Positions 10,753 to 32,447 of a stretch of 64,000 nucleotides of DNA are shown in pieces. A program made the position numbers and the translations under genes. The notes under the pieces were generated by a model. It was given only the letters and a program-made list of their open reading frames with translations, was not told where the DNA came from and did not search any database. Each line of letters begins with the position of its first letter. Position 1 is the stretch's first letter. Origin of the DNA: an uncultured Vitreoscilla sp. (GTDB lineage Bacteria; Pseudomonadota; Gammaproteobacteria; Burkholderiales; Burkholderiaceae_C); contig CAYQMX010000015.1 in assembly GCA_964418745.1 (NCBI GenBank), forward strand, positions 3,137-67,136, written 5' to 3'.

Positions 10753-10804
10753 GGCGCGATTGTCTCAGCGCGGGCGCGCCCTTGTCATGACAACGCGCAA
10801 GCGG

Positions 10805-12779: not shown

Positions 12780-13145
12780 ATGCACGGACTCCACCTGATC
12801 GCCGACCTGCACGACTGCCGCGGCGCCACACCGCTCGACGACGCCGACGCCCTGCGCACGCTGTGCCTGGATGCGGTCGAGCGCGCGGGCCTGCGCGCCG
12901 TGGGCAGCCTGTTCCATCCTTTCGTGGACGCGCAGGGGCGGCCGCAGGGTGTCACCGGCGTGGTGCTGCTGGTGGAGTCGCACTTGGCGGTGCACACCTG
13001 GCCCGAACTGCGCAGCGTGACGGCCGACGTCTACGTGTGCAATCTCGGGACCGACAACTCGGCGCGCGCCGAGGCGGTGATGGCGCGGCTGGTGGCGGCG
13101 TTCGGGCCGCGCGAGCCGCGCGTGCAGCGCGTCCAGCGCGGTTGA
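12780..13145 (+). CDS. speH: S-adenosylmethionine decarboxylase proenzyme (small pyruvoyl type)
   Basis: VVLLVESHLAVHTWPE contains the Glu-Ser self-cleavage site. DVYVCN is also present. The ~120-aa size is typical of SpeH/SpeD class 1. Confidence 0.88.
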   Translation: MHGLHLIADLHDCRGATPLDDADALRTLCLDAVERAGLRAVGSLFHPFVDAQGRPQGVTGVVLLVESHLAVHTWPELRSVTADVYVCNLGTDNSARAEAVMARLVAAFGPREPRVQRVQRG

Positions 13146-13146
13146 A

Positions 13147-13674: not shown

Positions 13675-13770
13675 GGTCTGGGTCGGCGCGGGCGCGCGGC
13701 GGTCGGGATGGCGCGATTGTGCCGTGCCCGCCAGGGTATGCGCATCGGCGCAGACCCTGGCGGTGTCGTG

Positions 13771-15072: not shown

Positions 15073-15410
15073 CGTTCTTCTCCGGTGCAGTCGTGCGATG
15101 GTGCGGCTTCGCCACTGGCCGGCGCAGCGGGGAAACACGCATGGCCCTGGCGCGCGTGGGTGCATTCGGCGCACCGCTGCGACGACTCGCGGCCGGTCGT
15201 GCCGGCGCGGCGAATGCGCGGGTCCTTGACGGGTGTCAACGTCGATCCGGTGCCTTCTCCGTATGGTGTCCCCTGGGGTTCATTTCGCCGTCTTCGGGCT
15301 GTTGCATCGAGGCGCTGCCGCAATCTCCGGACAGCGCTGGCGAAGGAGCGGGCGGTGGCCGCCGCTCGCGCCAACCCTCGCCAATCCGCCGCCAGGCCCG
15401 ACCCTATCCC

Positions 15411-16658
15411 ATGCAATTCACCGACACCGAATTCCCGCCGGCCGACCCGGCCGCCGACGCCGAGCACCTGATGAGCGGGCTCGCCGCCGCCCGCTTGCGA
15501 CCCCTCGTGCTGCGCGGCCATCGCGCACTGCTGCCGATCGTCCAGGGCGGCATGGGCGTGGGCGTCTCGGCGCATCGCCTGGCCGGCAGCGTCGCGGGAC
15601 TCGGGGCCATGGGCACCATCGCCTCGGTCGACCTGCGCCGGCACCACCCCGACCTGATGGCGCGCACGGGCACCCTGGAGGCCGGCGAGAGCGCGACGAT
15701 CGCCGCCAAGGCGGCCATCAACGCGGCCAATCTCGAAGCGCTGGAACGGGAGATCCGGCACGCACAGGCGCTGGCTGGAGGGCGCGGGCCGATAGCTCTG
15801 AACATCATGCGGGCCGTGGGCGAATACGCGCCGACGGTGGCCCGCGCCCTGGCATGCGGCATCGACGCCCTCGTCGTCGGCGCCGGTCTGCCGCTCGACC
15901 TGCCCGACCTGGCCAGCGACCACCCGGACGCGCTGCTGGTGCCCATCCTGTCCGATGCGCGCGGCATCCAGTTGCTGGTGCGCAAGTGGGAGCGCAAGAA
16001 GCGCATGCCCGATGCCATCGTGATCGAGCATCCCCGCTTCGCCGGCGGGCACCTGGGCGCGGCGCGAGTCGCCGACCTGGCCGACCCCCGCTTCGATTTC
16101 GAGAACGTGATTCCGCAGGCGCTGGAATTCCTGCGCGGCGCCGGGCTGGAAGGGCAGGTGCCGCTGATCGCCGCGGGCGGCATCCGCTGCCACGCCGACA
16201 TCGCGCGGCTGCAGGGCCTCGGCGCGGCGGCGGTGCAACTGGGAACGCCGTTCGCCGTGACCCTCGAATGCGATGCCCACGAGGACTTCAAGCGGGTGCT
16301 CGCCGATGCGCGCGACGAGGACCTGGTCGAGTTCACGAGCGTGGCCGGCCTGCCGGCGCGTGCCGTGCTGACGCCGTGGCTGCGCAACTACCTGAAGGCC
16401 GAGGACAAGCTCAAGAGCGTGGCCCACGTGAAGCCGCGCTGCACGCTGGCGTTCGACTGCCTGGCCCAGTGCGGCCTGCGCGACGGCACGGTCGCCTGGG
16501 GCCAGTTCTGCATCGACAAGCAACTGGCTTCAGCCCTGCGCGGCGACGTCCGCAAGGGGCTGTTCTTCCGCGGCGTCGGCGCGCTGCCGTTCGGTGCCGA
16601 GATCCGCAGCGTGCGCGAGCTGATGGCGCGGATGCTCACCGCGACCGCGCACGGCTGA
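15411..16658 (+). CDS. NAD(P)H-dependent flavin oxidoreductase, nitronate monooxygenase family
   Basis: LPIVQGGMGVGVS, IAAGGI and a TIM-barrel FMN pattern. ATG at 15411 chosen within the longer track ORF. Confidence 0.75.
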   Translation: MQFTDTEFPPADPAADAEHLMSGLAAARLRPLVLRGHRALLPIVQGGMGVGVSAHRLAGSVAGLGAMGTIASVDLRRHHPDLMARTGTLEAGESATIAAKAAINAANLEALEREIRHAQALAGGRGPIALNIMRAVGEYAPTVARALACGIDALVVGAGLPLDLPDLASDHPDALLVPILSDARGIQLLVRKWERKKRMPDAIVIEHPRFAGGHLGAARVADLADPRFDFENVIPQALEFLRGAGLEGQVPLIAAGGIRCHADIARLQGLGAAAVQLGTPFAVTLECDAHEDFKRVLADARDEDLVEFTSVAGLPARAVLTPWLRNYLKAEDKLKSVAHVKPRCTLAFDCLAQCGLRDGTVAWGQFCIDKQLASALRGDVRKGLFFRGVGALPFGAEIRSVRELMARMLTATAHG

Positions 16659-16696
16659 CGTCCCGCCCGGGTCGACCGCACGGCCCGGCCAGTGGC

Positions 16697-17914
16697 TCAA
16701 TCCGACTGCAGCGGCGGCCTGGGATCCAGCCTGAAACTGCTCGTGGTCGACTTCAGCAGTTCGACCTTGGATGCGTAGAGCGAGCGCTGCCTGGCGCTCG
16801 GGCTGTTGGCTTCGGCCTGGAGAAGATGCGCCATCGCCCGCCCGCGGTCGCCCAGGTTGAGGTAGATGACCGCCAGCCGGTAGTGCAGTTCGTGGTTGTC
16901 GCTCGCCGATCGCAGCGCACGCTCGAACAGGTCGCGTGCGCGCGCGTCGTCGCCGGATTCACTGGCCTGGATGCCTTCGGCCATGGCCGCTGCCAGCGAT
17001 GCCGCCCTCGAACGAGGGTGCTCCCGCTCGATGGCCGCTGCCAGTTCGGCGCGCCCGTCGCGCCGCAGCACGGCGGCCAGGTTGTGCCAGGATTCCTGGC
17101 TGTCGGGTTCCAGTGAAAGCGCGAAGCGCAACGCCGCCTCCGCCTGGGGCAGCAGGCCCTTGCGCAGGTACGTCACGCCCAGCGTGTTGTACAGGCTGAA
17201 GAGCGACGGGTCCAGCGCGACGCCGCCTCGGACCCACCAGTAGGCGTCGTCGATGCGCTTCTGCCCCAGCGCCTCGGCGGCCCGGTTGTTCATGAACATC
17301 GCGGCGATGCGGGACTCGGAGATCGGTCGCGTCACCTGGCCCTTGATTTCCGAGGGCGGCAGGAAGTCGACCGTCCACCAGTCCGACGCGAAGCCCCAGG
17401 TACGCAGCTTGGGAAGCGGCATCCCGACCGAGACGTTCACGTGCCCGACGAGCTCCATGAGATCGCCGTCGCGTTCCCAATGCTCGCTGGTCTCGACGGA
17501 TTGGTAGCGCACGGACAGTCCCAGTTCCTTGGCCATGGCACCGGTCACGATGGCCAGGGAGAGACAGTTGCCCGCGCGTGCCTCGAACGCCTGCGCGGCG
17601 GTGCGCGTGAATTCCGCGTCGTAGGCAAGCTGCAGGCGGCGATCCGTGAACAACGCTTCCATCAGCCCGTGCGCCTGGCCATGCTTGCCGACTTCCTCGG
17701 CGACCCGGGAGCCCAGGTAGGCACGCATCTCCGGGCTCACCCTGAAGATGTCCGCGGCATCGACCGGCTGGGACGGCGGGGCGAAGCTCGAATCGGAAAA
17801 GATCGGCTCGCTCGCGGCGACAGGGGCCGGTGCATGCGCGCAGGACGCCAGCGCCAGGCAGAGGAACAGCGCCCAGGACGGTCTCGTCATGTCGATTCTC
17901 AACGCCGGGCTCAT
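16697..17914 (-). CDS. Transglutaminase-like/TPR lipoprotein
   Basis: Lipoprotein signal ...LCLALASC, a transglutaminase-like core (AGNCLSLA, ELVGHVNV), and C-terminal TPR repeats. AGGAGG lies 6 nt upstream of ATG 17914 (alternative ATG at 17890). Confidence 0.7.
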   Translation of the reverse strand: MSPALRIDMTRPSWALFLCLALASCAHAPAPVAASEPIFSDSSFAPPSQPVDAADIFRVSPEMRAYLGSRVAEEVGKHGQAHGLMEALFTDRRLQLAYDAEFTRTAAQAFEARAGNCLSLAIVTGAMAKELGLSVRYQSVETSEHWERDGDLMELVGHVNVSVGMPLPKLRTWGFASDWWTVDFLPPSEIKGQVTRPISESRIAAMFMNNRAAEALGQKRIDDAYWWVRGGVALDPSLFSLYNTLGVTYLRKGLLPQAEAALRFALSLEPDSQESWHNLAAVLRRDGRAELAAAIEREHPRSRAASLAAAMAEGIQASESGDDARARDLFERALRSASDNHELHYRLAVIYLNLGDRGRAMAHLLQAEANSPSARQRSLYASKVELLKSTTSSFRLDPRPPLQSD

Positions 17915-18120
17915 GGACATCCTCCTGGAGGATCCAGGAATTCTGTTGGCTGCCGACCTCGCATCATGCCCCGCGGCCGACGCCGCACGGGCCCGCCGTC
18001 GTCGCGCCCGCAGATCATGGGACGAACAGGAATGTACTGCGACCGGCGCGGTCTTGTCCACGCGCACCGCGACACCGGCGGGACGCGTCGCCGGCCCGGC
18101 CCCTGCAGGGCTGCATGACG

Positions 18121-18156
18121 CAGAAAGGGCCCGCAAGCCGAAGCCTGCGGGCCCTT
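18121..18156 (-). terminator. Rho-independent terminator of the OmpA-like gene
   Basis: The minus-strand RNA forms GGGCCCGCAGGC-UUCG-GCUUGCGGGCCC (12-bp stem, UUCG tetraloop) followed by UUUCUG. Confidence 0.8.
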
Positions 18157-18180
18157 CGAACGATCAGACGGGAAGTCGGA

Positions 18181-19272
18181 TCAGTTCACTTGCCTGGTGA
18201 ACGTCACCGGTTCGATCTCGACGCGGCGGTTCGGCTCCAGGCACTTGATCAGCGCCGGGCGCTTCTTCTCGTCCTTGCACTCGACCACCGGATCGGCTTC
18301 GCCCTTGCCGACCGCGGTCAGGCGATTGGCGGCGACGCCCTTGCCCTGCAGGTAGGCCTTGACGGAGTTCGCGCGCTGTTCGGACAGCTTCTGGTTGTAG
18401 GCGTTGCTGCCGAGGCGGTCGGTGTAGCCGACGATGGTCACGCTGGCGATGTCGGCGTTGGCGTTCATCGTCGAGGCGACTTCATCGAGCTTGGGCTGGT
18501 TCGGGCCCAGCTTGGCGCTGTCGAAGCCGAACAGCTCGCTGGCCGACAGCGTGTACTTCTTCATCACCGGGGCGGGCGGCGGCGGGGGCGGCGCGATGAC
18601 CACCGGGGCGGGCGGCGGCGGCGGCGGGGTCGTGGCGACCGTCGTCTCCGTCGTGCGCGTGCTCGTGACCACCGGCACCACGGGCGGGGCCGGCGGGCCG
18701 CCGAACGCCCAGGTCAGGCCGACGTTGGCGTAGGTGTTGGCCGCGTGCTTCATGTCGTACTGGTTGATGCGGTCGCGGTAGAACGAGGCGACTTCGCGGA
18801 CGTCGGCCTGCAGGCCCAGCGTCGGCGTGATCTTGTACTGGAAGCCCAGGCCCAGGTTCGCGTAGGGCGCGGTGCGGCGGAAGCTGCCCACGCTCGGGTC
18901 GGTGATGCCGTCGCGCGACACGCCGACGCCGGCCAGCACGAACGGACGGAAGCCCGCCGGCGTGAACAGGTACAGCGCGTCGACACCTGCCAGGTACTCG
19001 TGCATCTTGATGCCGTTGTTCTTGGACTGGGCGTAGTTGCCGCCGATCTGCAGGTCCCAGCTGGGCGACAGCGGGATGCCGAACTTGATGCCGCCGCCAT
19101 AGCCGATCTTGTCCTCGGGGAACTTCGAATCGGGCTTGATGGCGCTGCCATTGAGCAGGATGTAGTCCGAGGGGTTGTAGGTCTCGTTGGTCTGCGCGGC
19201 GGCGGTACCGATGAACGCGAGGGCGGCGGCGGCTGCCAGCGCGTTGATCGCGAGCGACTTGTGTTGAATCAT
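18181..19272 (-). CDS. OmpA family outer-membrane protein (beta-barrel + Pro-rich hinge + OmpA_C peptidoglycan-binding domain)
   Basis: Signal peptide MIQHKSLAINALAAAAALAFIGTAAAQ, an 8-strand-like barrel, a PPPPPPAPVVIAPPPPPPAP hinge, and VGYTDRLGSNAYNQKLSEQRANSV. AGGAG lies upstream of ATG 19272. Confidence 0.92.
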   Translation of the reverse strand: MIQHKSLAINALAAAAALAFIGTAAAQTNETYNPSDYILLNGSAIKPDSKFPEDKIGYGGGIKFGIPLSPSWDLQIGGNYAQSKNNGIKMHEYLAGVDALYLFTPAGFRPFVLAGVGVSRDGITDPSVGSFRRTAPYANLGLGFQYKITPTLGLQADVREVASFYRDRINQYDMKHAANTYANVGLTWAFGGPPAPPVVPVVTSTRTTETTVATTPPPPPPAPVVIAPPPPPPAPVMKKYTLSASELFGFDSAKLGPNQPKLDEVASTMNANADIASVTIVGYTDRLGSNAYNQKLSEQRANSVKAYLQGKGVAANRLTAVGKGEADPVVECKDEKKRPALIKCLEPNRRVEIEPVTFTRQVN

Positions 19273-19656
19273 TGACTCACTCCTGAGGTGGTTTTGTGAA
19301 GGGCTGTCACGCGGTCCGGCGAGCTGTTGCATGGAGGGATGCTCGCCCTGGAAGGACCTTACGTCGCCCGGAACCGTCGTTGTTGAACCGTCGCTGACAG
19401 GTGCGGAAGAGTTCCTCCGTCCGGTGCGGCTCGGCAACGACGGCCGGGCATGGTGTGCATCGTGGCAAGCGTCATGCCCGCGGGCATCCTGTACGTCGCG
19501 TCACGATTTGTTGCCGGTCTTGCGGCCTCGTTGCTCGGGGCCGCGCGCCGGCGCATTCGCCACGCGACGTAACGAGTCGTCAGGCGCGATCGGCACCGGA
19601 CGTGCGGCAATCGCGTCGCAGCGTGTTGCTGACGGGTAAAGCCGCGCGGCGCGTGG

Positions 19657-21267
19657 CTAGGCGGCCACGCGTCCCAGCGCTCGTGCCGCGCGGCGGCCGG
19701 CGTCGTCGCCGCGCGTGAACGCCTCCTCGAACACCGAGTAGGCCGACAGGTCGGCATGGGCGAAGCTGATGCGCCGCGCGGCCTCGGGCAGCGCGGCCAG
19801 CGCCGCGCTCGAACGCAGGCCCGGCGCCGGGATAGCCATCGCATGGCCGTGGCGCACGATGTCCACCTGCTGCAGTCGTTCGGACAGGTCGGGGTGCACC
19901 GCGCGCAGGTCGTCGAGGACCAACTGGGTGGCGTCCTGCCAGGACAGCGCCAGCAGCCGCGCACGATCGCGGTCCGGGAACGCCCAGTACGCCGTGAGCA
20001 GGCGCGGTCCGACCACGCGCGCCAGGCTCTGGTGCTGCGCGTCGACGTAACCCAGCGACGGGCTGCCGTGGATCACGTTGTCCCATGACAGCGGCGCGCC
20101 GACGCGGTCCAGCGGCAGGGCGTCCAACCGCAGGTTGGCCACCATCCACGGCGCGCGGCGCTGCATGCGGGCGACCGCGACGAGCGCGGGCGGCGGCGCG
20201 GCGAGCACGCGCGCGGCGACGAACAGCGGCGTGGCAACGATCACGTGGCGCGCCGTCCAGCGTTCGACATCGGCGCCGGCGAAGGCCCAGGCGGTGACGT
20301 CCTGCAGGCCCTCGTCGATGCGGAACGCGGCGCGCCCGGCCTGCACGCGATCGGCGAACGGCTGGCGCAGCGCCTGCACCAGCGGCGCGTTGCCGTCGGG
20401 CCAGGTGAGCACCGGGTCGCGGTCGTTGCTGTCGTCGCCGGGGGCCGCGAAGCCGTGGCGACTCGCGAAGTAGTGCACCAGGGCCCAGGCCGAGACGGTG
20501 TCGGCGCCCGCGCCGTAGTCGTCGCGGCAGCAATAGTCGAGGTAGGCCAGCACCAGCGGATCGACGATGCCCTGGGCGCGCAACCAGTGTGCGGCGGTGA
20601 CGGCGTCGAGCGCGGCATGCGCGGGCGTCCAGGGCGCGCGCGCGGTGGGCAGCGCGAAGCCGAGCCGGCCGGCATCCGCGATGGCCCGGGCCAGCAGTCG
20701 GTACTGGGCCTGCGTGGCCGAGGCGGGCGCGACGGCGGGCAGCAGGCCGTCCTGCCAGCGCCCGCCGATGAACAGGCGCTCCTGCGGGCTGTGGCACAGC
20801 TGGCGCTCGTCCCACTTCGGGCCGGACGGGGTCTGCCGCGCGAGGCCGATCTCCACCAGCCAGGCCTGGATGTCGGCTGCGGCCGGACCTGGCAGCGGCA
20901 GGTAGTGCGCGCCGAGCGGACAGCGCAGCCCCTGCATCTCATGGCCGCGGCTGTTGCCGCCGGCAGCGTCCTCCAGCTCCAGCACCACGAAGTCCTCGAT
21001 GCCCGCGCGCTGCAGCGCGCGCCCCGCCGCCAGACCGGCGATGCCGGCGCCGACCACCAGTACGTCGCAGCGCCGCGCGCGGGCGCCCGCCGGCGGGTGC
21101 GCGGCCGCGTCCCGCACGCGATGGCCCAGGGCCGCGTTGTCGCCGATCCAGCGGCCGTCGACACGCGTGCGCCAGTCGTCGGGCTTCGCGCAGCCGCTCA
21201 CCAGGGCCGGCGCGGCCAGCGCGGCACCGAGAAATCCACGGCGCGTGGCCGATGGCGTCCGGGGCAT
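19657..21267 (-). CDS. FAD-dependent amine-oxidase-like oxidoreductase, Tat-exported lipoprotein
   Basis: Twin-arginine motif TRRGFLGAALAAPA followed by lipobox LVSGC. Dinucleotide fold DVLVVGAGIAGLAAGRAL...LELEDAAGGN. ATG at 21267 chosen inside the track ORF. Confidence 0.8.
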   Translation of the reverse strand: MPRTPSATRRGFLGAALAAPALVSGCAKPDDWRTRVDGRWIGDNAALGHRVRDAAAHPPAGARARRCDVLVVGAGIAGLAAGRALQRAGIEDFVVLELEDAAGGNSRGHEMQGLRCPLGAHYLPLPGPAAADIQAWLVEIGLARQTPSGPKWDERQLCHSPQERLFIGGRWQDGLLPAVAPASATQAQYRLLARAIADAGRLGFALPTARAPWTPAHAALDAVTAAHWLRAQGIVDPLVLAYLDYCCRDDYGAGADTVSAWALVHYFASRHGFAAPGDDSNDRDPVLTWPDGNAPLVQALRQPFADRVQAGRAAFRIDEGLQDVTAWAFAGADVERWTARHVIVATPLFVAARVLAAPPPALVAVARMQRRAPWMVANLRLDALPLDRVGAPLSWDNVIHGSPSLGYVDAQHQSLARVVGPRLLTAYWAFPDRDRARLLALSWQDATQLVLDDLRAVHPDLSERLQQVDIVRHGHAMAIPAPGLRSSAALAALPEAARRISFAHADLSAYSVFEEAFTRGDDAGRRAARALGRVAA

Positions 21268-21409
21268 GGCGGGGTCGGGATGACGCGTTGCCGCCGCCGG
21301 CGCGGATCCGCCGGCACCGCCATCCAAGGGAGCGCGGGATCCGGCTCCGCCGGGCCCGTCGCGGAGCTCCCCCCCGGGGGGCAGCGAGCGCCAGCGAGCG
21401 TGGGGGCCG

Positions 21410-22990
21410 TCAATCATGAACCTTGCCCCATTCCTCTTCGAACGTCCGGACGAGGGTCTGGTTCGACAGCCGGTTCGGCTCCGCCGGCACCCGCGCCATG
21501 TCCGGCGGGAAGTCGAGCAGCGCCTGCAGGCCGGGCAGGGTCAGGAAGCGCAGGCCGGCGGGCAGGGCGCGCGGCGGCACCCACGGCCGGTGGCTGGCGA
21601 TGATGAAGCCCCATTCGCCGAAGCTGGGCACGTGCACGTGGTACGGCACGATGTGCAGGCCCGCGGTCTCCAGCGTCGTCGCCACGGTCCAGAAGCTGCG
21701 CCGCGCCACCAGCGGCGAGGTGGTCTGCACGACGGCGTAGCCGCTCGCGGCCAGGTGCAGGTCCACCAGCTCGTAGAAGCTCGTGGAGTACAGCTTGCCG
21801 AGCGCGTAGTTGCTCGGGTCGGGGAAGTCCACCACGATGACGTCGTACTGGTCGTCGTGCTGCTCCAGCCAGGCGAAGGCGTCGGCGTTGACGATGCGCA
21901 CCCTGGGCGAGGCCAACGCGTGGCGGTTCAGCGCCACCAGCGCCGGCTCGGTGGAGAATAGCCGGGTCATCTCCGGATCGAGCTCGACCTGCGTGACCTG
22001 TTCCACCGACGGGTACTTCAGGATCTCGCGGATCGCCAGCCCGTCGCCGCCGCCCAGCACCAGCACGCGCCGCGGCGCGCCGTAGCCGGCCATCGCGGGG
22101 TGCACCAGCGCCTCGTGGTAGCGGTACTCGTCCTTCGAGTTGAACTGCAGGTTGCCGTTGAGGAACAGCCGCAGCGTGTCGCCCTGCGAGGTGACGACGA
22201 TGCGCTGGTAGGGCGTGGACTCGTGCAGCACCACCCCGGGGCCGTAGAAGCGGTCCTCCGACCAGGTGGTGAGCAGGTCGCCGGCGGCCATCGCGGCCAC
22301 CAGCAGCGCGAAGATCGCGCCGCACTGCGCGCCGAGCCGGCGCCAGTGCGGGATGTCGGCGCGGAACAGCCACAGCGACCAGATCGCCACCAGCGTGTTG
22401 AGCAGGCCGAAGAAGATGCCCGAGCGCACGATGCCCAGGTGCGGCACCAGCAGCAGCGGGAACGCCACCGAGACCACCAGCGCGCCGAGGTAGTCGAAGG
22501 TGAGCACCTGCGACACCAGCGTGGACAGGCTGTCGCGCCCCTTCAGGTGACGGTCGAGCAGGCGCAGCACGATGGGGATCTCGAGCCCGACGCCGATGCC
22601 CACCAGCGTGACCAGGCCGTACAGCAGCACCTTGAACGACAGCAGGCTGGCCGCCGGCAGCGTGGCGTGCGCGGCGAACAGCGCAGCGGGCATCAGCCCG
22701 CCGATCACGCCGACGATCAGCTCGACCCGCACGAACATCGTCGCCAGCCCGGCGTGCACATGGCGCGAGGCCCACGAGCCCAGGCCCATCGCGAACAGGT
22801 AGGTGCCGATGACGGTGGAGAACTGCAGCACCGAGTCGCCCAGCAGGTAGCTGGCGAGTGCGCCGGCGCACAGCTCGTAGACCAGGCCGCAGGCGGCCAC
22901 CACGAACACCGAGGCGAGCAGCGCGAGCTCGCCCGGGCCGACGCGCGGCGCCGCGGCCGCCCGCCCGCCGTCCCCGGAGCCCAGCTCCAT
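21410..22990 (-). CDS. Polyamine aminopropyltransferase (spermidine-synthase-like) fused to an N-terminal polytopic membrane domain
   Basis: The N-terminal ~210 aa carry about 7 TM helices. The SpeE fold follows (VLVLGGGDGLAIREILKY, DVIVVDFPDPSN). The ATG at 22990 shares one nucleotide with the DUF350 stop codon (TGATG). Confidence 0.88.
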   Translation of the reverse strand: MELGSGDGGRAAAAPRVGPGELALLASVFVVAACGLVYELCAGALASYLLGDSVLQFSTVIGTYLFAMGLGSWASRHVHAGLATMFVRVELIVGVIGGLMPAALFAAHATLPAASLLSFKVLLYGLVTLVGIGVGLEIPIVLRLLDRHLKGRDSLSTLVSQVLTFDYLGALVVSVAFPLLLVPHLGIVRSGIFFGLLNTLVAIWSLWLFRADIPHWRRLGAQCGAIFALLVAAMAAGDLLTTWSEDRFYGPGVVLHESTPYQRIVVTSQGDTLRLFLNGNLQFNSKDEYRYHEALVHPAMAGYGAPRRVLVLGGGDGLAIREILKYPSVEQVTQVELDPEMTRLFSTEPALVALNRHALASPRVRIVNADAFAWLEQHDDQYDVIVVDFPDPSNYALGKLYSTSFYELVDLHLAASGYAVVQTTSPLVARRSFWTVATTLETAGLHIVPYHVHVPSFGEWGFIIASHRPWVPPRALPAGLRFLTLPGLQALLDFPPDMARVPAEPNRLSNQTLVRTFEEEWGKVHD

Positions 22991-23214
22991 CAACCGTGGA
23001 TCGCCGCGGCGATGATCATGCCGAGCGCGATGAACATCGAGCCGACCATGATGGCCAGCGCGATGTTCTTCTCCTCGACGATCTGCTCCCACAGCTTGTA
23101 GGGCGTGATCTTGTCGATGACGACGAAGGCCATCCACAACACGACGACGCCGATCACGGCGTAGAGCACCGTGCCGCCGATCACGTCGGGCCTGAGCCAT
23201 TCGGGTGTTGTCAT
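22990..23214 (-). CDS. DUF350 (YjfL-like) small membrane protein
   Basis: 74 aa, two to three TM helices (VLYAVIGVVVLWMAFVVIDKITPY...NIALAIMVGSMFIALGMIIAAAIHG). AAGGAG RBS upstream of ATG 23214. Confidence 0.8.
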   Translation of the reverse strand: MTTPEWLRPDVIGGTVLYAVIGVVVLWMAFVVIDKITPYKLWEQIVEEKNIALAIMVGSMFIALGMIIAAAIHG

Positions 23215-23257
23215 TGCCTGCTCCTTCGATTGAATGTCGCGATGGTGCCGCAACGGG

Positions 23258-24862
23258 CTACTTGTGCCCGCCGCCGCCGGAGGAATATCCGCCCCAGGCG
23301 CCGCCGGTGCCGTAGTAGGCACCTGTTCCGGCGGCCGCGCGTGACTTGCACTGCTGGTACTCCAGGCTGTTCGATCCGAACGCGCGCCGCACGTCGCTGC
23401 AGGAATCGTGGCTGCACATCGCCAGCAGCAGGATCACCACGATCAGCAGCACCAGCAGCACGGGCCAGGAGATCATCCGGCCGGGCCCGACGAGCGAGCC
23501 GAGCGACGGCGGGCCGCCGGCGCGCTGCAACTGCGCCGCCTGCTCGGTGCCGAGGCCGAACACGCTCGCGACCATCGCCGCGGGAATCGATTCGCCGGCC
23601 GACCAGGTGGTCTCGCTGGCCGTGCTCTCCTTGCTCAGGAATGCGCGGTGGCCGCTGGCCGAGCCTTCGTAGTCCTCGTGCTGCGTGCGCTGCCGGGCCT
23701 CGACCTTCCAGTAGAACTCGCCCAGCACGTAGGTGGTCTCGGACGCGTAGGTCCAGCGCCGCCGATACGTGGTGCCGTACCACTTCGCCGTGTCGCCGGC
23801 GACCTCGGGCGCGCCGGTGAGCACGCGCACCACGCTCCACCCCTCGTTGGTGTCGACGAGGAAGGCGAAGCCTTCGGTGCGGTTGTAGAGCAGGTATTCG
23901 CGCCAGGCCTCGGCCTCGTCGCCGCCGCCCATCAGCTCCATGCGCTCCGTGTAGCCCACCACCTGCCACGGCAGCGCCGCCGCGCCGCTGGGGATCGGCA
24001 GCGTGCCGGTGCGGCCCAGCGGGATGCCCGGCTCCATGCGGTTGAGCTGTGCGTAGTGCGCCATGTCCGGGCCGATGCCCTTGGACAGGTCCACCACCGA
24101 CTTGCAGCTGTCGCACACCACCGACTGCGTCGTCGCCAACGTGATCTTCAGTGGCGCGCCGCAATTGGGGCAGGGCGGCGACTGCGCCTGGATCGTCTTC
24201 TCGCCCGCGCCGGCGATGCCGGCCTCGCGCAGGCCGGCCATCTTGAGGTCGGCCAGGCGCACCGAACGGCCGATGGACCAGGTCAGGGTCGCGGCGTCGA
24301 CGGCCTCCAGCGTGGCCACCTCGTCGGCGGTGTTGCGCAGGTCGCAGACGACGATCGCGCGGCCGGCCGGCGGCGGCTGAACCAGTTCGCCCTGCGCGGC
24401 CAGCAGCTTCGCCTGGACGACGGAGGCGACGCTCCAGGGCCGCCCGTCGACGGTGACGCGCGCGCCGGCCTGCAGCCGCTCGGGTCGCGGCGCGTCCGCG
24501 GGTGCGGGGGCGTCGAACGCGAACACGTAGCGGCCGTTGTCCTCCGACAGCCAGCCGCTGCGGCCGTTGTCGAACAGCGCGTGCCACTCGTTCCAGGGCC
24601 CGTCATCGGTGCCGAACTGCAGGCGGCCGACGAGCATGAAGGCCGTGCCCTGGTAGCTGCCGCTGGCGCCGATCGCCAGCGGCGTGAAGTCGTCGAAGAC
24701 CTCGGCGCTGGTGCCGATCTTGCGCAGCGCCTCGCCGTCGCGCACCAGCGTGCTGCGGCAGAAGCCGCACACCGCGCTGGCCGATGCCGAGGACAGGAAC
24801 TCGACCGGCGCGCCGCAGTTCGGACACGCCGCACGCCAGGCGCGCTGCGGGGCGGTGGCCAT
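23258..24862 (-). CDS. Tandem zinc-ribbon/DUF4178 protein with C-terminal TM helix and Cys/Gly-rich tail
   Basis: Two repeats of CPNCGAP...C..C followed by DUF4178-like beta-rich modules. Then a TM helix WPVLLVLLIVVILLLAM and a tail ending ...GGAWGGYSSGGGGHK. Confidence 0.75.
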   Translation of the reverse strand: MATAPQRAWRAACPNCGAPVEFLSSASASAVCGFCRSTLVRDGEALRKIGTSAEVFDDFTPLAIGASGSYQGTAFMLVGRLQFGTDDGPWNEWHALFDNGRSGWLSEDNGRYVFAFDAPAPADAPRPERLQAGARVTVDGRPWSVASVVQAKLLAAQGELVQPPPAGRAIVVCDLRNTADEVATLEAVDAATLTWSIGRSVRLADLKMAGLREAGIAGAGEKTIQAQSPPCPNCGAPLKITLATTQSVVCDSCKSVVDLSKGIGPDMAHYAQLNRMEPGIPLGRTGTLPIPSGAAALPWQVVGYTERMELMGGGDEAEAWREYLLYNRTEGFAFLVDTNEGWSVVRVLTGAPEVAGDTAKWYGTTYRRRWTYASETTYVLGEFYWKVEARQRTQHEDYEGSASGHRAFLSKESTASETTWSAGESIPAAMVASVFGLGTEQAAQLQRAGGPPSLGSLVGPGRMISWPVLLVLLIVVILLLAMCSHDSCSDVRRAFGSNSLEYQQCKSRAAAGTGAYYGTGGAWGGYSSGGGGHK

Positions 24863-24949
24863 CAGGCGACCACCTTCGCACGCCGCTCACGAGCGTGCGT
24901 GCTCACGCGCGACGCCCGCCGGTAGCGCCGAGGATGGCGACACGGGCCA

Positions 24950-25984
24950 TCACAGCTTCTTCAGCAGCTCGGTCTTCTTGGCCTGGAACTCTTCCTCGGT
25001 GAGGATGCCCTTGGCCTTCAGGTCGCCCAGCTTCTCGATCAGCGCCATCACGTCCTGCACCGGCGGGTGTTCGCCGCTGGCCGCCGCGGCCGTGGCGATG
25101 CCCGTGCCCAGGCCTTGCGCGATGTTGCCCGCGAGCACCTGGCCGAGGGCCACGCCCGCGCCCAGGCCCATCGCGCTGCCGGCGATGCCGCCGCCGCCTT
25201 CGCCCGCGCTCTCCGCGAACTTCGGAATCGACTGCGCGGTCTGGTACTGCATGAACGCGCCCATGTTCTGGCCGACCATGCCCATGCCGATCTTCTGGTC
25301 GAGGATCTTCTGCAGTTCGTCGGGCAGCGAGACGTTCTGCACCGTCACGGTGTCCAGGGCCAGGCCCAGGGCCGTGAACGCCGGCCCGACGGCGGCCTTG
25401 ATCTGCGTGGCGAACTCCACCTGGTTGGCGGCCAGGTCCAGGAACGGGATGCCGCTCTGGGCGACCGCGTCGGACAGGTGCTGCAGCACGAGCCCGCGCA
25501 GCTGGCCATCGATCTCCTCGGCGGTGTAGCGGTCGCGCGTGCCCGAGACCTGCTGCTGGAACAGCTTGGGGTCGGCGACGCGCCACGAGTAGTTGCCGAA
25601 CGCGCGGATGCGGATCGCGCCGAAATCCTTGTCGCGCAGCGTGACGGGCTGCGGCGTGCCCCAGCGCTGGTCGACCTGCAGCCGGGTGCTGAAGAAGTAG
25701 ACGTCGCTCTTGAACGGGGACGCGAACAGCTTGTCCCAGTTCATCAGGTTGGTGAGCAGCGGCAGCGTGTGCGTGTTCAGCGTGTACAGGCCGGGCCCGA
25801 ACGCGTCGGCCGCGCGGCCCTCGTTGACGAACAACGCGGCCTGCGACTCTCGCACCGTCAGCCGGGCGCCGTTCTGGATCTCGTTGTCCTGCATCGGATA
25901 GCGCCATGCGAGGATGCCGTCGCCCGGCTCCTGCCACTCGATGACGTCGATGAACTGTTTCTTGATGAACCCCATCAATGACAT
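24950..25984 (-). CDS. SPFH (Band-7-like) domain protein with C-terminal SHOCT domain
   Basis: MSLMGFIKKQFIDVIEW...FVNEG...YTLNT N-terminus is typical of the SPFH/virion-core-like family. The C-terminal DVMALIEKLGDLKAKGILTEEEFQAKKTELLKKL is a SHOCT motif. GGAGG lies 5 nt upstream of ATG 25984. Confidence 0.82.
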   Translation of the reverse strand: MSLMGFIKKQFIDVIEWQEPGDGILAWRYPMQDNEIQNGARLTVRESQAALFVNEGRAADAFGPGLYTLNTHTLPLLTNLMNWDKLFASPFKSDVYFFSTRLQVDQRWGTPQPVTLRDKDFGAIRIRAFGNYSWRVADPKLFQQQVSGTRDRYTAEEIDGQLRGLVLQHLSDAVAQSGIPFLDLAANQVEFATQIKAAVGPAFTALGLALDTVTVQNVSLPDELQKILDQKIGMGMVGQNMGAFMQYQTAQSIPKFAESAGEGGGGIAGSAMGLGAGVALGQVLAGNIAQGLGTGIATAAAASGEHPPVQDVMALIEKLGDLKAKGILTEEEFQAKKTELLKKL

Positions 25985-26196
25985 GGCTGCCTCCACTGGC
26001 TGCTGTTGCATTCAGGGCGGATCATAGACGCTGGCGGGGGGCGGCGGACGCGCCGGCGTCGCGCGCGCTTCGAACGGGGGATGGAAGGCCGGGCCGGCGG
26101 CCATGGCGTGCGGGCGGCTCCAGGGCGAATGCCGGTCGCGCGAGGGCAGGGGACGATCCTGCTAGATTCCGTGGGTCGCATCGACAGGAAGCCCCG

Positions 26197-31377: not shown

Positions 31378-31420
31378 GGGATGTCATCCTCCTGGAGCTG
31401 TACTGTGCGCAATGCATGGT

Positions 31421-31451
31421 GCCCGGCGCCCGCTCGCGCGCGCGGCCGGGC
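31421..31451 (-). promoter_or_regulatory. GC-rich stem-loop in the lanA-lanM spacer (possible attenuator or processing site)
   Basis: GCCCGGC(GCC)CGC ... GCGGCCGGGC inverted repeat within the 83-nt spacer. No U-tract follows on the transcribed strand. Confidence 0.3.
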
Positions 31452-31460
31452 GGGTCGACG

Positions 31461-31676
31461 TCACATGCCGCCGCAGGCCGGCTGATTGATCATGAACGTC
31501 GGGCAGTGGTTGATCAGCGTGAGCGGCCGCATGCCGCCGCCGACCAGGTCGGTCTCGGTGTCGTGCAGCACCACCGTGCCGGACGGATGCGCGGGAAGGG
31601 CGCTGCGTTCGGTGTCGCTGAGGCTCGCGCGATAGGCTTCGTCCTTCCACGCACGGACGATATCGATCTGCTTCAT
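31461..31676 (-). CDS. lanA: Lanthipeptide precursor LanA (71 aa; mersacidin-like leader, Gly-Gly processing site, 23-24 aa core)
   Basis: MKQIDIVRAWKDEAYRASLSDTERSALPAHPSGTVVLHDTETDLVGGG-MRPLTLINHCPTFMINQPACGGM. AAGGAG RBS lies 7 nt upstream of ATG 31676. The gene sits immediately upstream of lanM on the same strand. It is only the 3' tail of track ORF 31461..32345. Confidence 0.85.
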   Translation of the reverse strand: MKQIDIVRAWKDEAYRASLSDTERSALPAHPSGTVVLHDTETDLVGGGMRPLTLINHCPTFMINQPACGGM

Positions 31677-32445: not shown

Positions 32446-32447
32446 CC

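What the first reader, a model, noticed from the sequence alone, without database searches (positions are those of the whole stretch)
19657..25984. SPFH/SHOCT - DUF4178 - DUF350 - membrane SpeE-like - periplasmic amine-oxidase gene string: an uncharacterised polyamine-linked envelope module
Seen: five co-directional genes on the minus strand. The DUF350 stop and the SpeE-like start share a nucleotide (TGATG), and the other gaps are 43-142 bp. Three of the five products are membrane-embedded, one is a Tat-exported lipoprotein, and the first is an SPFH (Band-7/flotillin-like) scaffold with a SHOCT tail. Established, from my recollection and to be verified: the E. coli yjfIJKLMC operon links a PspA/IM30 protein with DUF350 (YjfL) and a glutathionylspermidine-synthase homologue. 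Comparative genomics of the Psp network has also noted DUF350/DUF4178/spermidine-synthase neighbourhoods. None of these modules has a demonstrated function. Inference: here an SPFH scaffold takes the place PspA holds in yjf-type operons. That suggests a membrane-stress or membrane-microdomain system that makes or senses a polyamine at the membrane and oxidises it in the periplasm.
Basis: partly seen in the sequence, partly recalled or inferred. Interest (0 to 1): 0.7.

Follow-up and report, generated by a model that had tools for sequence, protein, structure and literature searches.

The report
Membrane aminopropyltransferase envelope module, already catalogued

Summary
Five co-directional minus-strand genes lie at 19657-25984: SPFH/SHOCT, Zn-ribbon/2xDUF4178, DUF350, a 7TM-aminopropyltransferase and a Tat-lipoprotein flavin amine oxidase. 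The TGATG overlap and the 43-142 bp gaps are as stated.

The set is not a chance grouping. Relatives keep it in 43-74 of 47-74 loci with enough flank. It recurs, in a different gene order, in Ralstonia, Burkholderia and a Gemmatimonadota plasmid.

It is not new. Ravi et al. 2024 (mSystems) already describe the variant in which a band-7/SHOCT protein replaces the PspA-CesT pair, together with AdoMetDC and a polyamine oxidase.

Three things are added here:
- **Missing AdoMetDC.** It lies at 12780-13145 (+), 6.5 kb away.
- **Predicted topology.** Seven helices and a strong positive-inside bias place the aminopropyltransferase domain in the periplasm, alongside the oxidase.
- **Conserved tail.** The DUF4178 protein carries a periplasmic Gly/Ser/aromatic tail ending in His-Lys-COOH in 79 of 79 relatives. 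In Ralstonia and Burkholderia this tail is a separate small ORF.

Most likely function: local, dcSAM-dependent aminopropylation and oxidation of an envelope amine, not bulk spermidine synthesis. The acceptor is unknown, and the tail lysine is a speculative candidate. This is a new member of a known, uncharacterised kind.

The parts
24950..25984 (-). SPFH (Band_7_1) protein, 344 aa, with a Gly/Ala-rich C-terminal segment and a SHOCT tail. It is the first gene of the string.
   Evidence: Pfam PF13421 E 6e-76, PF01145 E 6e-16, PF09851 E 1e-8. The start codon and GGAGG ribosome-binding site are conserved in five relatives. Present upstream of DUF4178 in 68/69 related loci. No segment passes a Kyte-Doolittle transmembrane threshold.
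25985..26031 (-). Conserved block upstream of the SPFH gene, containing a TATGAT (-10-like) hexamer about 40 nt before the ATG. Probable promoter and 5'UTR of the string.
   Evidence: Nearly invariant in six aligned relatives while the rest of the intergenic region is not. The generic sigma-70 scan did not call it, so function is inferred.
23258..24862 (-). DUF4178 protein, 534 aa: two CxxC...CxxC zinc ribbons, each followed by an all-beta DUF4178 domain, then one transmembrane helix and a tail.
   Evidence: Pfam PF13785 E 5e-26 with two stretches, plus sub-threshold zinc-ribbon hits. AlphaFold2 pLDDT 75.7, beta-rich domains at 60-210 and 285-426, helix 466-483. No significant PDB match by sequence or by fold. 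2562 cluster representatives at E<=1e-3.
23261..23476 (-). C-terminal element of the DUF4178 protein (residues 463-534): transmembrane helix, Cys-containing stretch, then a Gly/Ser/aromatic tail ...GGAWGGYSSGGGGHK-COOH. Predicted periplasmic. Candidate substrate or recognition tail.
   Evidence: K534, G520, G524 and G529 are invariant and H533 is kept in >=90% of 56 homologues. All 79 homologues in L001-L080 end in HK. 41 of 148 distant representatives end in HK or GK. The same element is a separate 50-61 aa ORF in Ralstonia and Burkholderia. A comparable small ORF is present in Tritonibacter and Gemmatirosa.
22990..23214 (-). DUF350 (YjfL family) half-size membrane protein, 74 aa, two transmembrane helices. 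Its stop overlaps the SpeE start (TGATG).
   Evidence: Pfam PF03994 E 1e-15, matching positions 6-66 of a 133-position model. Sequence read. Hydropathy. Present in 74/74 related loci. The Ralstonia orthologue is 132 aa.
21410..22990 (-). 7TM-aminopropyltransferase, 526 aa. Seven N-terminal helices carry invariant membrane-embedded acidic residues. The C-terminal spermidine-synthase fold has an intact dcSAM and catalytic motif set.
   Evidence: NCBIfam NF002956 662.6 bits against a cut-off of 472. TIGR00417 speE 125.7 bits, below its cut-off of 249.55. AlphaFold2 pLDDT 82.6 with helices 19-50, 53-77, 82-110, 116-149, 154-185, 187-208 and 216-235. Foldseek top hits are 1UIR/3ANX, 6BQ2 and 7XIF. 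K+R per loop is 1.7/1.9/4.2/3.2 in odd loops and 0/0/0 in even loops. Motifs GGGDG, (E/D)LD and DxPDP, and E39, E137, D166, N198 and R143, are conserved across four lineages.
19657..21267 (-). Tat-exported flavin amine oxidase lipoprotein, 536 aa from ATG 21267. An alternative ATG at 21417 overlaps the SpeE stop by 8 nt.
   Evidence: Pfam PF01593 E 8e-15 over residues 76-520. All 28 orthologues scanned hit PF01593. The profile's best PDB match is putrescine oxidase 2YG6, E 5e-13, followed by PPOX and MAO-B. RR motif in 45/47 orthologues and lipobox Cys in 40/47. The public gene call is 586 aa.
12780..13145 (+). [quoted passage not shown] It is the module's dcSAM supplier, detached here and convergent with the string.
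   Evidence: Pfam PF02675 E 1.4e-27. The ...VESHLAVHTWPE... self-processing motif and the YVCN cysteine are present. Orthologues abut the oxidase gene in L030 and L077, and lie within 10 kb in 10 relatives. It lies inside the operon in Ralstonia, Burkholderia, Gemmatirosa and Alteromonas.

Best explanation
This is one copy of a conserved envelope module whose chemical core is a membrane-anchored, dcSAM-dependent aminopropyltransferase.

**Proposed working**
1. The cytoplasmic class 1b AdoMetDC (12780-13145) makes decarboxylated SAM. This is inferred from the family and its intact processing motif.
2. The 7TM-aminopropyltransferase transfers the aminopropyl group to an amine acceptor that is not the bulk putrescine pool. 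The intact catalytic motifs are shown. The acceptor is unknown.
3. By topology prediction, the catalytic domain lies on the periplasmic side. The seven-helix domain has invariant buried Glu/Asp residues and would then pass a cation across or into the membrane. That cation could be dcSAM or the acceptor. This step is inferred.
4. The Tat-exported flavin amine oxidase is always encoded directly downstream. It oxidises the aminopropylated product, or trims it back, in the same compartment. Its location is well supported, but its substrate is inferred.
5. The SPFH-SHOCT protein, the membrane-anchored Zn-ribbon/DUF4178 protein and DUF350 form the sub-membrane platform that holds or regulates the enzyme. 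They occupy the place of the PspA-CesT pair in sister operons. This is inferred from gene context only.

My favoured acceptor is the invariant C-terminal lysine of the periplasmic Gly-rich tail of the DUF4178 protein. I give it roughly a one-in-three chance, conditional on the rest being right.
For: **Family assignments and intact motifs:**

**Conserved linkage.** Within Sphaerotilaceae-type Burkholderiales the partner genes are present in 68/69, 74/74, 45/47 and 43/47 loci. All six families cluster with a different gene order in Ralstonia wenshanensis and Burkholderia cenocepacia. They form one contiguous co-directional array in Gemmatirosa, phylum Gemmatimonadota. A PspA/TelA-type sister operon with 7TM-SpeE, speD, DUF4178 and DUF350 is present in Alteromonas.

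**Published description of this variant:** PMC11237479.

**Not bulk spermidine synthesis.**
- The protein fails the speE equivalog cut-off.
- Its closest solved relatives are the Thermus triamine/agmatine aminopropyltransferase and thermospermine synthase.
- R. pseudosolanacearum, which carries the module, has no detectable spermidine (PMC12802222).
- R. pickettii makes putrescine and 2-hydroxyputrescine (PMC7857480).

**Topology.** AlphaFold2 gives seven helices. K+R totals about 11 in the odd loops and 0 in the even loops across 49 homologues. The same pattern holds at 35-56% identity in four other lineages. Buried E39, E137, D166 and N198 are invariant.

**Oxidase export signal is conserved:**

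**Tail:**
Against: - No experiment on any member of this variant was found. Only one held paper even contains 'DUF4178'.
- A periplasmic dcSAM-dependent enzyme has no precedent that I know of, and dcSAM is made in the cytoplasm. The topology rests on helix counting and the positive-inside rule, not on data.
- The second Asp of the DxPDP motif binds the distal amine of a diamine in canonical enzymes. It is conserved here, which argues for a polyamine-like acceptor rather than a protein lysine.
- The oxidase resembles amine oxidases only moderately: best PDB profile hit E 5e-13, covering two thirds of the protein.
- In 23 relatives the two halves are separated by unrelated opposite-strand genes. 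In R. solanacearum they are separated by IS elements and an ABC transporter operon. Tight co-translation is therefore not required.
- The roles of the SPFH, DUF4178 and DUF350 proteins are inferred from context alone.
Confidence: 0.5

Rival explanations
1. Free-polyamine route. The 7TM enzyme is an ordinary cytoplasm-facing aminopropyltransferase. It makes a free polyamine such as spermidine, an aminopropyl derivative of 2-hydroxyputrescine, or a longer polyamine. The membrane domain exports the product to the cell surface. The periplasmic oxidase keeps its level low. The product coats or stabilises the envelope, as reported for surface spermidine in Pseudomonas aeruginosa.
For: - The protein passes NCBI's polyamine aminopropyltransferase model.
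- All catalytic and dcSAM-binding motifs are kept, including the distal-amine-binding Asp.
- dcSAM is cytoplasmic.
- The oxidase profile is closest to putrescine oxidase.
- Buried acidic residues fit a polyamine channel.
- A P. aeruginosa precedent appears in the reference list seen (Johnson et al. 2012).
Against: - Seven helices with a K+R bias of 11 to 0 predict the catalytic domain outside.
- No spermidine is detectable in module-bearing R. pseudosolanacearum.
- From memory, because the paper is not held: Li et al. 2019 found that such membrane fusions do not complement an E. coli speE mutant.
- This reading does not explain the invariant ...HK tail.
Confidence: 0.25
2. Lipid or glycan modification. 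The acceptor is an amine-bearing envelope lipid or polymer, for example phosphatidylethanolamine, ornithine lipid, aminoarabinose-lipid A or peptidoglycan. The module tunes membrane surface charge, and the SPFH or PspA scaffolds handle the resulting membrane remodelling.
For: - The enzyme is fused to a membrane domain.
- Across variants it is repeatedly coupled to membrane-remodelling scaffolds (PspA, SPFH) and to extracytoplasmic lipoproteins.
- Ravi et al. raise 'aminopropylation of other substrates'.
- No free product is known.
- The oxidase also gives weak hits to HpnE/CrtI-type lipid desaturases.
Against: - No lipid-handling domain is recognisable.
- The conserved distal-amine-binding Asp suggests a substrate with a second cationic group.
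- The oxidase profile ranks amine oxidases first.
- No lipidomic evidence exists.
Confidence: 0.1
3. Two unrelated units that are merely neighbours. SpeE-oxidase is a polyamine metabolism pair. SPFH-DUF4178-DUF350 is an independent membrane-stress unit.
For: - Opposite-strand insertions separate the two halves in 23 relatives.
- IS elements and an ABC transporter operon separate them by 15 kb in R. solanacearum.
- Tritonibacter has DUF4178-DUF350-SpeE without SPFH or the oxidase.
Against: - The halves stay adjacent or nearby in three Burkholderiales families and in Gemmatimonadota despite rearrangement.
- DUF350 and SpeE overlap by one base here.
- DUF4178 and DUF350 accompany 7TM-SpeE and speD in the PspA-type sister operons too.
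- speD sits in the SPFH half in Ralstonia, while its consumer SpeE sits in the other half.
Confidence: 0.05
4. An anti-phage defence or toxin system that uses SPFH/SHOCT proteins.
For: SPFH and SHOCT domains occur in some candidate defence loci (general knowledge). A lanthipeptide cluster lies 2.5 kb upstream.
Against: PADLOC gave no relevant hit for any of the six proteins. It returned only a generic methyltransferase-fold match and an FAD-fold match. Flanking genes are not conserved with the module, and no mobile-element signature was seen.
Confidence: 0.02

Closest known systems
Band-7 + 2TM + SHOCT variant of the PspA-CesT/polyamine operons (Ravi et al. 2024, mSystems 9:e00847-23, PMC11237479)
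   Same: The gene families match. [quoted passage not shown] DUF4178 and the 7TM-spermine-synthase fusion are described for the neighbouring operon group.
   Different: - The paper gives about two sentences, with no experiments.
- It has no statement that I found on the orientation of the synthase domain, and none on the C-terminal HK tail.
- It calls DUF4178 intracellular.
- In this window the AdoMetDC is detached by 6.5 kb.
E. coli yjfIJKLMC (and tolC-ygiBC)
   Same: A DUF350 membrane protein is linked to a polyamine-conjugating enzyme, a sub-membrane scaffold and an exported protein with a Gly-rich C-terminal tail.
   Different: - The scaffold is PspA-family YjfJ, not SPFH.
- The enzyme is an ATP-grasp peptide--spermidine ligase (YjfC/YgiC), not an aminopropyltransferase.
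- There is no DUF4178, AdoMetDC or oxidase.
- The tails of YjfM and YgiB end in Gly-Gly, not His-Lys.
PspA/TelA-type 7TM-SpeE operon (Shewanella-type in Ravi et al.; Alteromonas mediterranea plasmid MCP49-600 here)
   Same: It has 7TM-SpeE, speD, DUF4178 and DUF350 in one operon. The same loop charge pattern and catalytic motifs are present.
   Different: It carries a 'toxic anion resistance'/PspA-like protein and a 510-aa lipoprotein ending ...SSGK, instead of SPFH. It has no oxidase, DUF4178 is single-domain (185 aa), and DUF350 is 8TM-size.
Membrane (MFS-like)-SpdSyn fusions with AdoMetDC (Li, Kurihara, Kim, Liang & Michael 2019, Biochem J 476:2579)
   Same: From memory and from its citation: AdoMetDC is clustered with a membrane-fused spermidine-synthase-like protein and DUF350; the hosts lack spermidine; and the fusion does not complement E. 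coli speE.
   Different: The paper could not be read here. The window protein scores below NCBI's 'fused MFS/spermidine synthase' cut-off (28.3 against 40) and well above PRK03612. Identity with the proteins they tested is therefore unverified.
Mycobacterium tuberculosis Rv2597-Rv2601 (DUF4178, DUF2617, DUF4247, DUF350, membrane SpeE)
   Same: The same core of DUF4178 + DUF350 + membrane SpeE. Ravi et al. cite its DUF4247 and DUF2617 proteins as the other PspA-free variant. Rv2601 is annotated speE.
   Different: The front end is DUF4247/DUF2617 instead of SPFH, with no oxidase. The locus-tag mapping is from my memory and was not checked with a tool.
Thermus thermophilus triamine/agmatine aminopropyltransferase (1UIR/3ANX) and plant thermospermine synthase (6BQ2)
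   Same: These are the closest solved catalytic domains (phmmer E 2e-36; Foldseek E 2e-18, TM-score 0.73-0.78 on the target). They share the D-x-x-D-P catalytic motif.
   Different: They are soluble cytoplasmic enzymes acting on free polyamines, with no membrane domain. Identity is 26-32%.
Diatom silaffin lysine aminopropylation
   Same: A precedent for aminopropyl units on protein lysine epsilon-amines in Gly/Ser/Lys-rich peptides (PMC4557024). It is relevant only to the tail hypothesis.
   Different: It is eukaryotic and intracellular-vesicular. The enzymes are not established and there is no sequence relationship. This is a functional analogy only.

Membership tests
Band-7/SHOCT variant of PspA-free polyamine operons (Ravi et al. 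2024) | Band-7/SPFH protein with a C-terminal SHOCT domain at the head of the cluster | tested here: met
   PF13421 E 6e-76 and PF09851 E 1e-8.
Band-7/SHOCT variant of PspA-free polyamine operons (Ravi et al. 2024) | Two transmembrane segments between the band-7 and SHOCT domains | tested here: inconclusive
   A Gly/Ala-rich segment at about residues 264-305 is present. No 19-residue window reaches a Kyte-Doolittle mean of 1.6, and no structure was predicted.
Band-7/SHOCT variant of PspA-free polyamine operons (Ravi et al. 2024) | YjfL/DUF350 membrane protein in the cluster | tested here: met
   PF03994 E 1e-15. Present in 74/74 relatives.
Band-7/SHOCT variant of PspA-free polyamine operons (Ravi et al. 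2024) | AdoMet decarboxylase encoded with the cluster | tested here: met
   PF02675 E 1.4e-27 at 12780-13145 (+). Here it is detached by 6.5 kb. It is adjacent or in the operon in relatives.
Band-7/SHOCT variant of PspA-free polyamine operons (Ravi et al. 2024) | Polyamine oxidase encoded with the cluster | tested here: met
   PF01593 in 28/28 orthologues. Best PDB profile hit is putrescine oxidase. Polyamine specificity itself is untested.
Band-7/SHOCT variant of PspA-free polyamine operons (Ravi et al. 2024) | No PspA or CesT/Tir gene in the cluster | tested here: met
   No PspA or CesT family appeared among the ORFs of the window that were scanned with Pfam. A few small ORFs elsewhere in the window were not scanned.
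Polyamine aminopropyltransferase, membrane-fused type (NCBIfam NF002956 / PRK03612) | Whole-protein score above the curated cut-off | tested here: met
   662.6 bits against a cut-off of 472, with full-length alignment 20-523 to model positions 18-520 of 522.
Polyamine aminopropyltransferase, membrane-fused type (NCBIfam NF002956 / PRK03612) | dcSAM-binding and catalytic motifs (GGGDG, acidic ribose binder, D-x-x-D-P) | tested here: met
   VLGGGDG, VELDPE and VVDFPDP are conserved in six lineages and aligned to 1UIR.
Polyamine aminopropyltransferase, membrane-fused type (NCBIfam NF002956 / PRK03612) | Aminopropyl transfer from dcSAM to a defined amine | not testable with these tools
   This needs an enzyme assay. 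The acceptor is unknown.
Spermidine synthase sensu stricto (TIGR00417 speE; NF002010) | Score above the equivalog cut-off | tested here: not met
   TIGR00417 125.7 bits against 249.55, and NF002010 160.4 against 260.
Fused MFS/spermidine synthase (NCBIfam NF037959) | Score above the subfamily cut-off | tested here: not met
   28.3 bits against 40, although the alignment spans both the membrane and catalytic parts (residues 32-441).
Class 1b AdoMetDC (PF02675) | Pfam match plus the Glu-Ser-His self-processing site and the active-site Cys | tested here: met
   E 1.4e-27. ...LLVESHLAVHTWPE... and ...DVYVCN... are present. Processing and activity are not testable here.
Tat-exported lipoprotein | Twin-arginine motif (S/T-R-R-x-F-L) followed by a hydrophobic stretch and a lipobox Cys | tested here: met
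   TRRGFLGAALAAPALVSGC. RR in 45/47 orthologues and lipobox in 40/47. The Ralstonia and Burkholderia orthologues keep RR but lack the Cys.
E. coli yjfIJKLMC-type module | PspA-family protein, ATP-grasp GSP-synthetase homologue, and DUF1190, DUF2491 and DUF2170 proteins | tested here: not met
   Only DUF350 is shared. None of the other families is found in the window's scanned ORFs. This is a sister system, not a member.

The most novel reading that the evidence does not exclude
The module is a periplasmic protein-tail aminopropylation system.

The 7TM domain would deliver dcSAM, or hold the tail, so that the outward-facing aminopropyltransferase converts a C-terminal lysine into N-epsilon-aminopropyl-lysine, a protein-bound spermidine mimic. 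That lysine ends the conserved Gly/Ser/aromatic tail (...GGYSSGGGGHK-COOH). The tail is either fused to DUF4178 or encoded as a separate small membrane protein. The Tat oxidase would then remove the modification or convert it to a reactive aldehyde.

The sister modules with ATP-grasp peptide--spermidine ligases (YjfC, YgiC) would reach an equivalent end product by amidating the Gly-Gly-COOH tails of their partner lipoproteins (YjfM, YgiB) with spermidine. If so, a whole superfamily of DUF350-linked operons would install a polyamine on the C-terminus of an envelope protein. That would give the first extracytoplasmic dcSAM-dependent reaction, and an answer to the 'polyamine-independent role of AdoMetDC'.
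Probability: 0.15. Interest if true: 0.85.

Novelty: new member of a known kind. Interest (0 to 1): 0.45.

Why it matters
The membrane-fused spermidine-synthase-like proteins and their partner AdoMetDC occur in many bacteria that make no spermidine, and what they aminopropylate is an open question in polyamine biology. The DUF4178 family alone has 2562 cluster representatives. The core genes also occur in M. tuberculosis (locus mapping from memory) and, shown here, in Ralstonia and Burkholderia.

The same operons are repeatedly wired to membrane-stress scaffolds (PspA or SPFH). Solving one variant would therefore also say what these scaffolds organise.

This window does not add a new kind of system. 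The analysis does turn a vague 'polyamine-linked envelope module' into three concrete, cheap tests in culturable organisms such as Scleromatobacter, Ralstonia wenshanensis and Burkholderia cenocepacia:
- the orientation of the catalytic domain;
- the mass of the conserved HK tail;
- the substrate range of the periplasmic oxidase.

Tried and rejected
- **Anti-phage defence.** A PADLOC scan of all six proteins gave only generic fold hits. Rejected.
- **OmpA-family gene (18181-19272) and transglutaminase/TPR lipoprotein (16697-17776) as module members.** OmpA follows the oxidase only in the four closest relatives, and the TPR gene in none. Rejected.
- **DUF3291, AraC/GyrI and the lanthipeptide genes upstream.** They are not conserved with the module.
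- **Fold of DUF4178.** There was no PDB sequence hit. No Foldseek hit reached E<1e-3. The weak top hits are small closed beta-barrels (DUF3598, lipocalins, Cap15), which is suggestive of a ligand-binding barrel but not significant.
- **Fold of the 7TM domain.** Foldseek returned only matches to the catalytic domain.
- **Generic promoter and terminator scan.** It found nothing above the shuffle expectation inside the string.
- **The search for homologous proteins for DUF4178 and SpeE.** It returned only close relatives (>=53% and >=68% identity). Diversity had to come from the plasmid/chromid collection and the representative library.
- **Papers not held.** Li et al. 2019 and Pederick et al. 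2023 are not in the library. What I say of their content rests on memory or on citing papers.
- **B. ambifaria 'spermidine synthase-like' quorum-sensing gene (PMC3633348).** It lies on chromosome 1 and could not be tied to this module.
- **Polyamine papers from the Michael laboratory.** They held no description of the membrane fusion.

Full report
**1. What is in the sequence**

The window is about 70% G+C. Its closest relatives are Rubrivivax/Sphaerotilaceae-type Burkholderiales. The closest named genome is Scleromatobacter humisilvae, at 85% identity on the DUF4178 protein.

Five genes lie on the minus strand between 25984 and 19657:
- an SPFH (Band_7_1) protein with a SHOCT tail;
- a 534-aa protein with two zinc ribbons and two DUF4178 domains;
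- a 74-aa DUF350 protein;
- a 526-aa protein with a membrane domain fused to a spermidine-synthase fold;
- a flavin amine oxidase with a twin-arginine signal and a lipobox.

The gaps are 87 bp, 43 bp, a one-base overlap (TGATG at 22990) and 142 bp.

One detail is open. The oxidase could also start at the ATG at 21417, which overlaps the SpeE stop by 8 nt. The public gene call uses that start, and the extra N-terminal stretch is partly conserved in the closest relative.

A block upstream of the SPFH start, including a TATGAT hexamer and the GGAGG ribosome-binding site, is nearly invariant in six relatives. This fixes the start at 25984 and suggests that the string has its own promoter. Generic promoter and terminator scans found nothing above chance inside the string.

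**2. Is the grouping more than chance?**

A scan of one genome per species found 540 relatives of the DUF4178 protein, and the best 80 loci were kept. I counted only loci with enough flanking DNA. On the same strand and in the same order, SPFH is present in 68/69, DUF350 in 74/74, the membrane SpeE in 45/47 and the oxidase in 43/47.

These loci are all one bacterial group, so I looked further afield in the plasmid/chromid collection:
- In Ralstonia wenshanensis and Burkholderia cenocepacia the same families are arranged as two divergent units. One is oxidase<-SpeE. The other is DUF350->SPFH->DUF4178->small ORF->speD.
- In Gemmatirosa kalamazoonensis (phylum Gemmatimonadota) they form one contiguous co-directional array: SPFH, AdoMetDC, DUF4178, a small ORF, DUF350, SpeE, oxidase.

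Conservation through rearrangement and across phyla is good evidence of functional linkage.

The linkage is not strictly operonic. In 23 of the 80 loci, opposite-strand genes such as a histidine phosphatase or a chemoreceptor are inserted between DUF350 and SpeE. In R. solanacearum, IS elements and an ABC transporter operon separate the halves by about 15 kb. SpeE-oxidase is the tightest pair.

**3. A missed component: AdoMetDC**

Clustering all ORFs of the related loci revealed a 120-150 aa family with the motif ...ESHLAVHTWPE... in ten loci, convergent with the oxidase gene. In loci L030 and L077 it abuts that gene directly.

The window has its orthologue at 12780-13145 on the plus strand. 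It is 75-77% identical to the closest relatives and matches Pfam AdoMet_dc at E 1.4e-27. It lies 6.5 kb beyond the oxidase, separated from it by OmpA, transglutaminase/TPR, nitronate monooxygenase-like, MFS and GrpB genes. The enzyme that supplies decarboxylated SAM therefore belongs to the module.

**4. What is already known**

Only one held paper contains the word DUF4178: Ravi et al. 2024, mSystems (PMC11237479). It describes three things:
- operons that join a CesT/Tir-PspA dyad to a 7TM-spermine-synthase fusion, YjfL/DUF350, DUF4178 and a lipoprotein;
- operons that join the dyad to an ATP-grasp glutathionylspermidine-synthetase homologue, which is the E. coli yjf type;

The last is this module. 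[quoted passage not shown]

However, YjfC and its paralogue YgiC are now annotated as peptide--spermidine ligases. The source is Pederick et al. 2023, as cited in PMC11762307 and PMC12568646, and the physiological substrate is unknown.

Li et al. 2019 (Biochem J 476:2579) could not be read here. From memory, it reports that membrane-fused SpdSyn-like proteins cluster with AdoMetDC and DUF350, occur in bacteria without spermidine, and do not complement an E. coli speE mutant.

Two held papers are consistent with that. R. pseudosolanacearum GMI1000 has no detectable spermidine (PMC12802222). R. pickettii makes putrescine and 2-hydroxyputrescine (PMC7857480).

**5. The enzyme**

The protein passes NCBI's model for membrane-type polyamine aminopropyltransferases (662.6 bits, cut-off 472). 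It fails the speE equivalog models and the 'fused MFS/spermidine synthase' model.

The closest solved structures, by sequence and by fold, are the following:
- Thermus thermophilus triamine/agmatine aminopropyltransferase;
- plant thermospermine synthase;
- a Pyrobaculum enzyme.

All three accept amines larger than putrescine.

The dcSAM-binding and catalytic motifs are intact: LNGNLQ, DEYRYHE, GGGDG, VELD, NADA and VDFPDP. They are conserved in homologues at 35-56% identity from Burkholderia, Ralstonia, Alteromonas, Gemmatirosa and Tritonibacter. The enzyme is very probably active.

**6. Topology**

AlphaFold2 predicts seven long helices before the catalytic fold (pLDDT 82.6). The mean K+R counts across 49 homologues are:

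| Segment | Mean K+R |
|---|---|
| N-terminus | 1.7 |
| Loop 2-3 | 1.9 |
| Loop 4-5 | 4.2 |
| Loop 6-7 | 3.2 |
| Loops 1-2, 3-4 and 5-6 | 0.0 each |

The five distant homologues show the same alternation. By the positive-inside rule the N-terminus is cytoplasmic. With seven helices, the catalytic domain is then periplasmic.

That is the compartment of the Tat-exported oxidase. It is also, necessarily, the compartment of the tail of the DUF4178 protein. That protein's zinc-ribbon domains must be cytoplasmic, and only one helix separates them from the tail.

The membrane domain carries invariant buried Glu39, Glu137, Asp166 and Asn198, and Glu90 in five of six lineages, as expected of a path for a cation.

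This prediction creates a real difficulty, because dcSAM is made in the cytoplasm. Either the seven-helix domain or DUF350 conducts it outward, or the prediction is wrong. No data decide this.

**7. The oxidase**

All 28 orthologues tested match Pfam Amino_oxidase. A profile of them is closest to Rhodococcus putrescine oxidase (E 5e-13 over two thirds of the length), then protoporphyrinogen oxidase and monoamine oxidases. The label 'amine oxidase' is reasonable. 'Polyamine oxidase' is inferred from context.

Export is the most secure feature: the twin arginine is kept in 45/47 orthologues and the lipobox Cys in 40/47. The twin arginine is also kept in the Ralstonia and Burkholderia orthologues at 40% identity.

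**8. A conserved tail**

The DUF4178 protein ends with a transmembrane helix, a stretch with three conserved cysteines, and a Gly/Ser/aromatic tail: ...GGAWGGYSSGGGGHK.
- Lys534 and three glycines are invariant, and His533 is nearly so, in 56 homologues.
- All 79 homologues in the related loci end in His-Lys.
- Of 148 cluster representatives down to about 31% identity, 38 end in HK and 3 in GK with the same kind of tail.

In Ralstonia and Burkholderia the DUF4178 protein lacks the tail. Instead, a separate 50-61 aa ORF between DUF4178 and speD encodes an N-terminal transmembrane helix followed by ...GGSSGGSGYGGGFSGGHK or ...SGYSSYGSHK.

Comparable elements occur elsewhere:
- In Gemmatirosa and Tritonibacter, small membrane ORFs ending ...RFRHGK and ...GSGGGGYLNSNRVK sit just upstream of DUF350.
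- The Alteromonas lipoprotein ends ...GPSSGK.
- The DUF1190 lipoproteins next to the E. coli peptide--spermidine ligases have similar Gly/Ser/aromatic tails, but these end in Gly-Gly: YjfM ...RGGYGRSSSARGHWGG and YgiB ...SSRSMGG.

One reading fits both chemistries. A ligase needs a C-terminal carboxylate, as with the glycine of glutathione. An aminopropyltransferase needs an amine, such as a lysine side chain, which once aminopropylated is a spermidine look-alike.

Aminopropylated protein lysines are known from diatom silaffins (PMC4557024).

This is a hypothesis with several caveats:
- The distant small ORFs were found by a scan that also gives false positives.
- The E. coli examples are two paralogous pairs.
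- The conserved distal-amine-binding Asp argues for a diamine-like acceptor.

**9. The scaffold proteins**

The DUF4178 domains are all-beta. They have no significant structural neighbour; the weak top hits are small closed barrels. SPFH has no sequence relative in the PDB. Their roles as a platform, regulator or sensor rest on gene context and on the analogy with PspA-CesT.

**10. Verdict**

The instance is a new member of a known, computationally described and experimentally unsolved kind. Its interest lies in the open question it embodies and in the three testable features added here: the detached AdoMetDC, the outward-facing enzyme, and the invariant HK tail.

Noticed in passing
window 28465-34547 (lanM 28465-31377 minus; candidate lanA 31461-31676 minus; lanT 31875-34547 plus): A class II lanthipeptide cluster in a betaproteobacterium. 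It comprises a LanM synthetase (DUF4135 + LANC_like), a C39-peptidase ABC exporter, and a 71-aa candidate precursor: MKQIDIV...TETDLVGG|GMRPLTLINHCPTFMINQPACGGM. The precursor has a double-glycine cleavage site and a Cys/Thr-rich core.
   Followed up: partly
L009 4683-5537, L012 14051-14767, L015 12003-12758 (and 20 other relatives): In 23 of 80 related loci, opposite-strand genes are inserted between DUF350 and SpeE. The insert is usually a histidine phosphatase (LYLVRHGQASF motif) and sometimes a methyl-accepting chemotaxis protein. These insertions split the module into two transcription units.
   Followed up: partly
L091 7388-8026 (E. coli yjfM) and L092 2245-2916 (E. coli ygiB): Both DUF1190 lipoproteins lie next to the E. 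coli peptide--spermidine ligases YjfC and YgiC. Both end in Gly/Ser/aromatic tails that terminate in Gly-Gly (...ARGHWGG, ...SSRSMGG). They may be the unknown physiological substrates of those ligases.
   Followed up: partly
L090 (R. solanacearum MAFF 211472 megaplasmid) 6468-19377: A branched-chain amino-acid ABC transporter operon and at least five IS5/IS3 transposase genes lie between speE1-oxidase and DUF350-SPFH-DUF4178-speD. In R. wenshanensis these two units are directly divergent neighbours.
   Followed up: yes
window 21268-21417: The oxidase ORF extends 50 codons upstream of the Tat motif, to an ATG that overlaps the SpeE stop (ATGATTGA). The first about 30 of these codons are conserved in the closest relative, L001. 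The true start, and possible translational coupling with SpeE, are unresolved.
   Followed up: partly
window 18181-19272 and 16697-17776: An OmpA-family outer-membrane protein (beta-barrel + OmpA domain, with a Pro-rich linker) and a transglutaminase-like/TPR lipoprotein follow the oxidase on the same strand. OmpA is kept there only in the four closest relatives.
   Followed up: yes
window 35215-52446: Two large hybrid histidine kinases (multiple PAS domains, HisKA, HATPase, receiver, Hpt) are followed by a CheA-CheW/CheB-type chemosensory cluster. They are unrelated to the finding.
   Followed up: no
window 53666-63500: This stretch holds a DAO-family FAD oxidoreductase, an M16 peptidase, and an RND efflux pair (HlyD-family adaptor + AcrB-family pump) followed by a GNAT acetyltransferase. 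The called ORFs overlap at 54876-55240 and 59015-59352, so some starts are probably further downstream.
   Followed up: no
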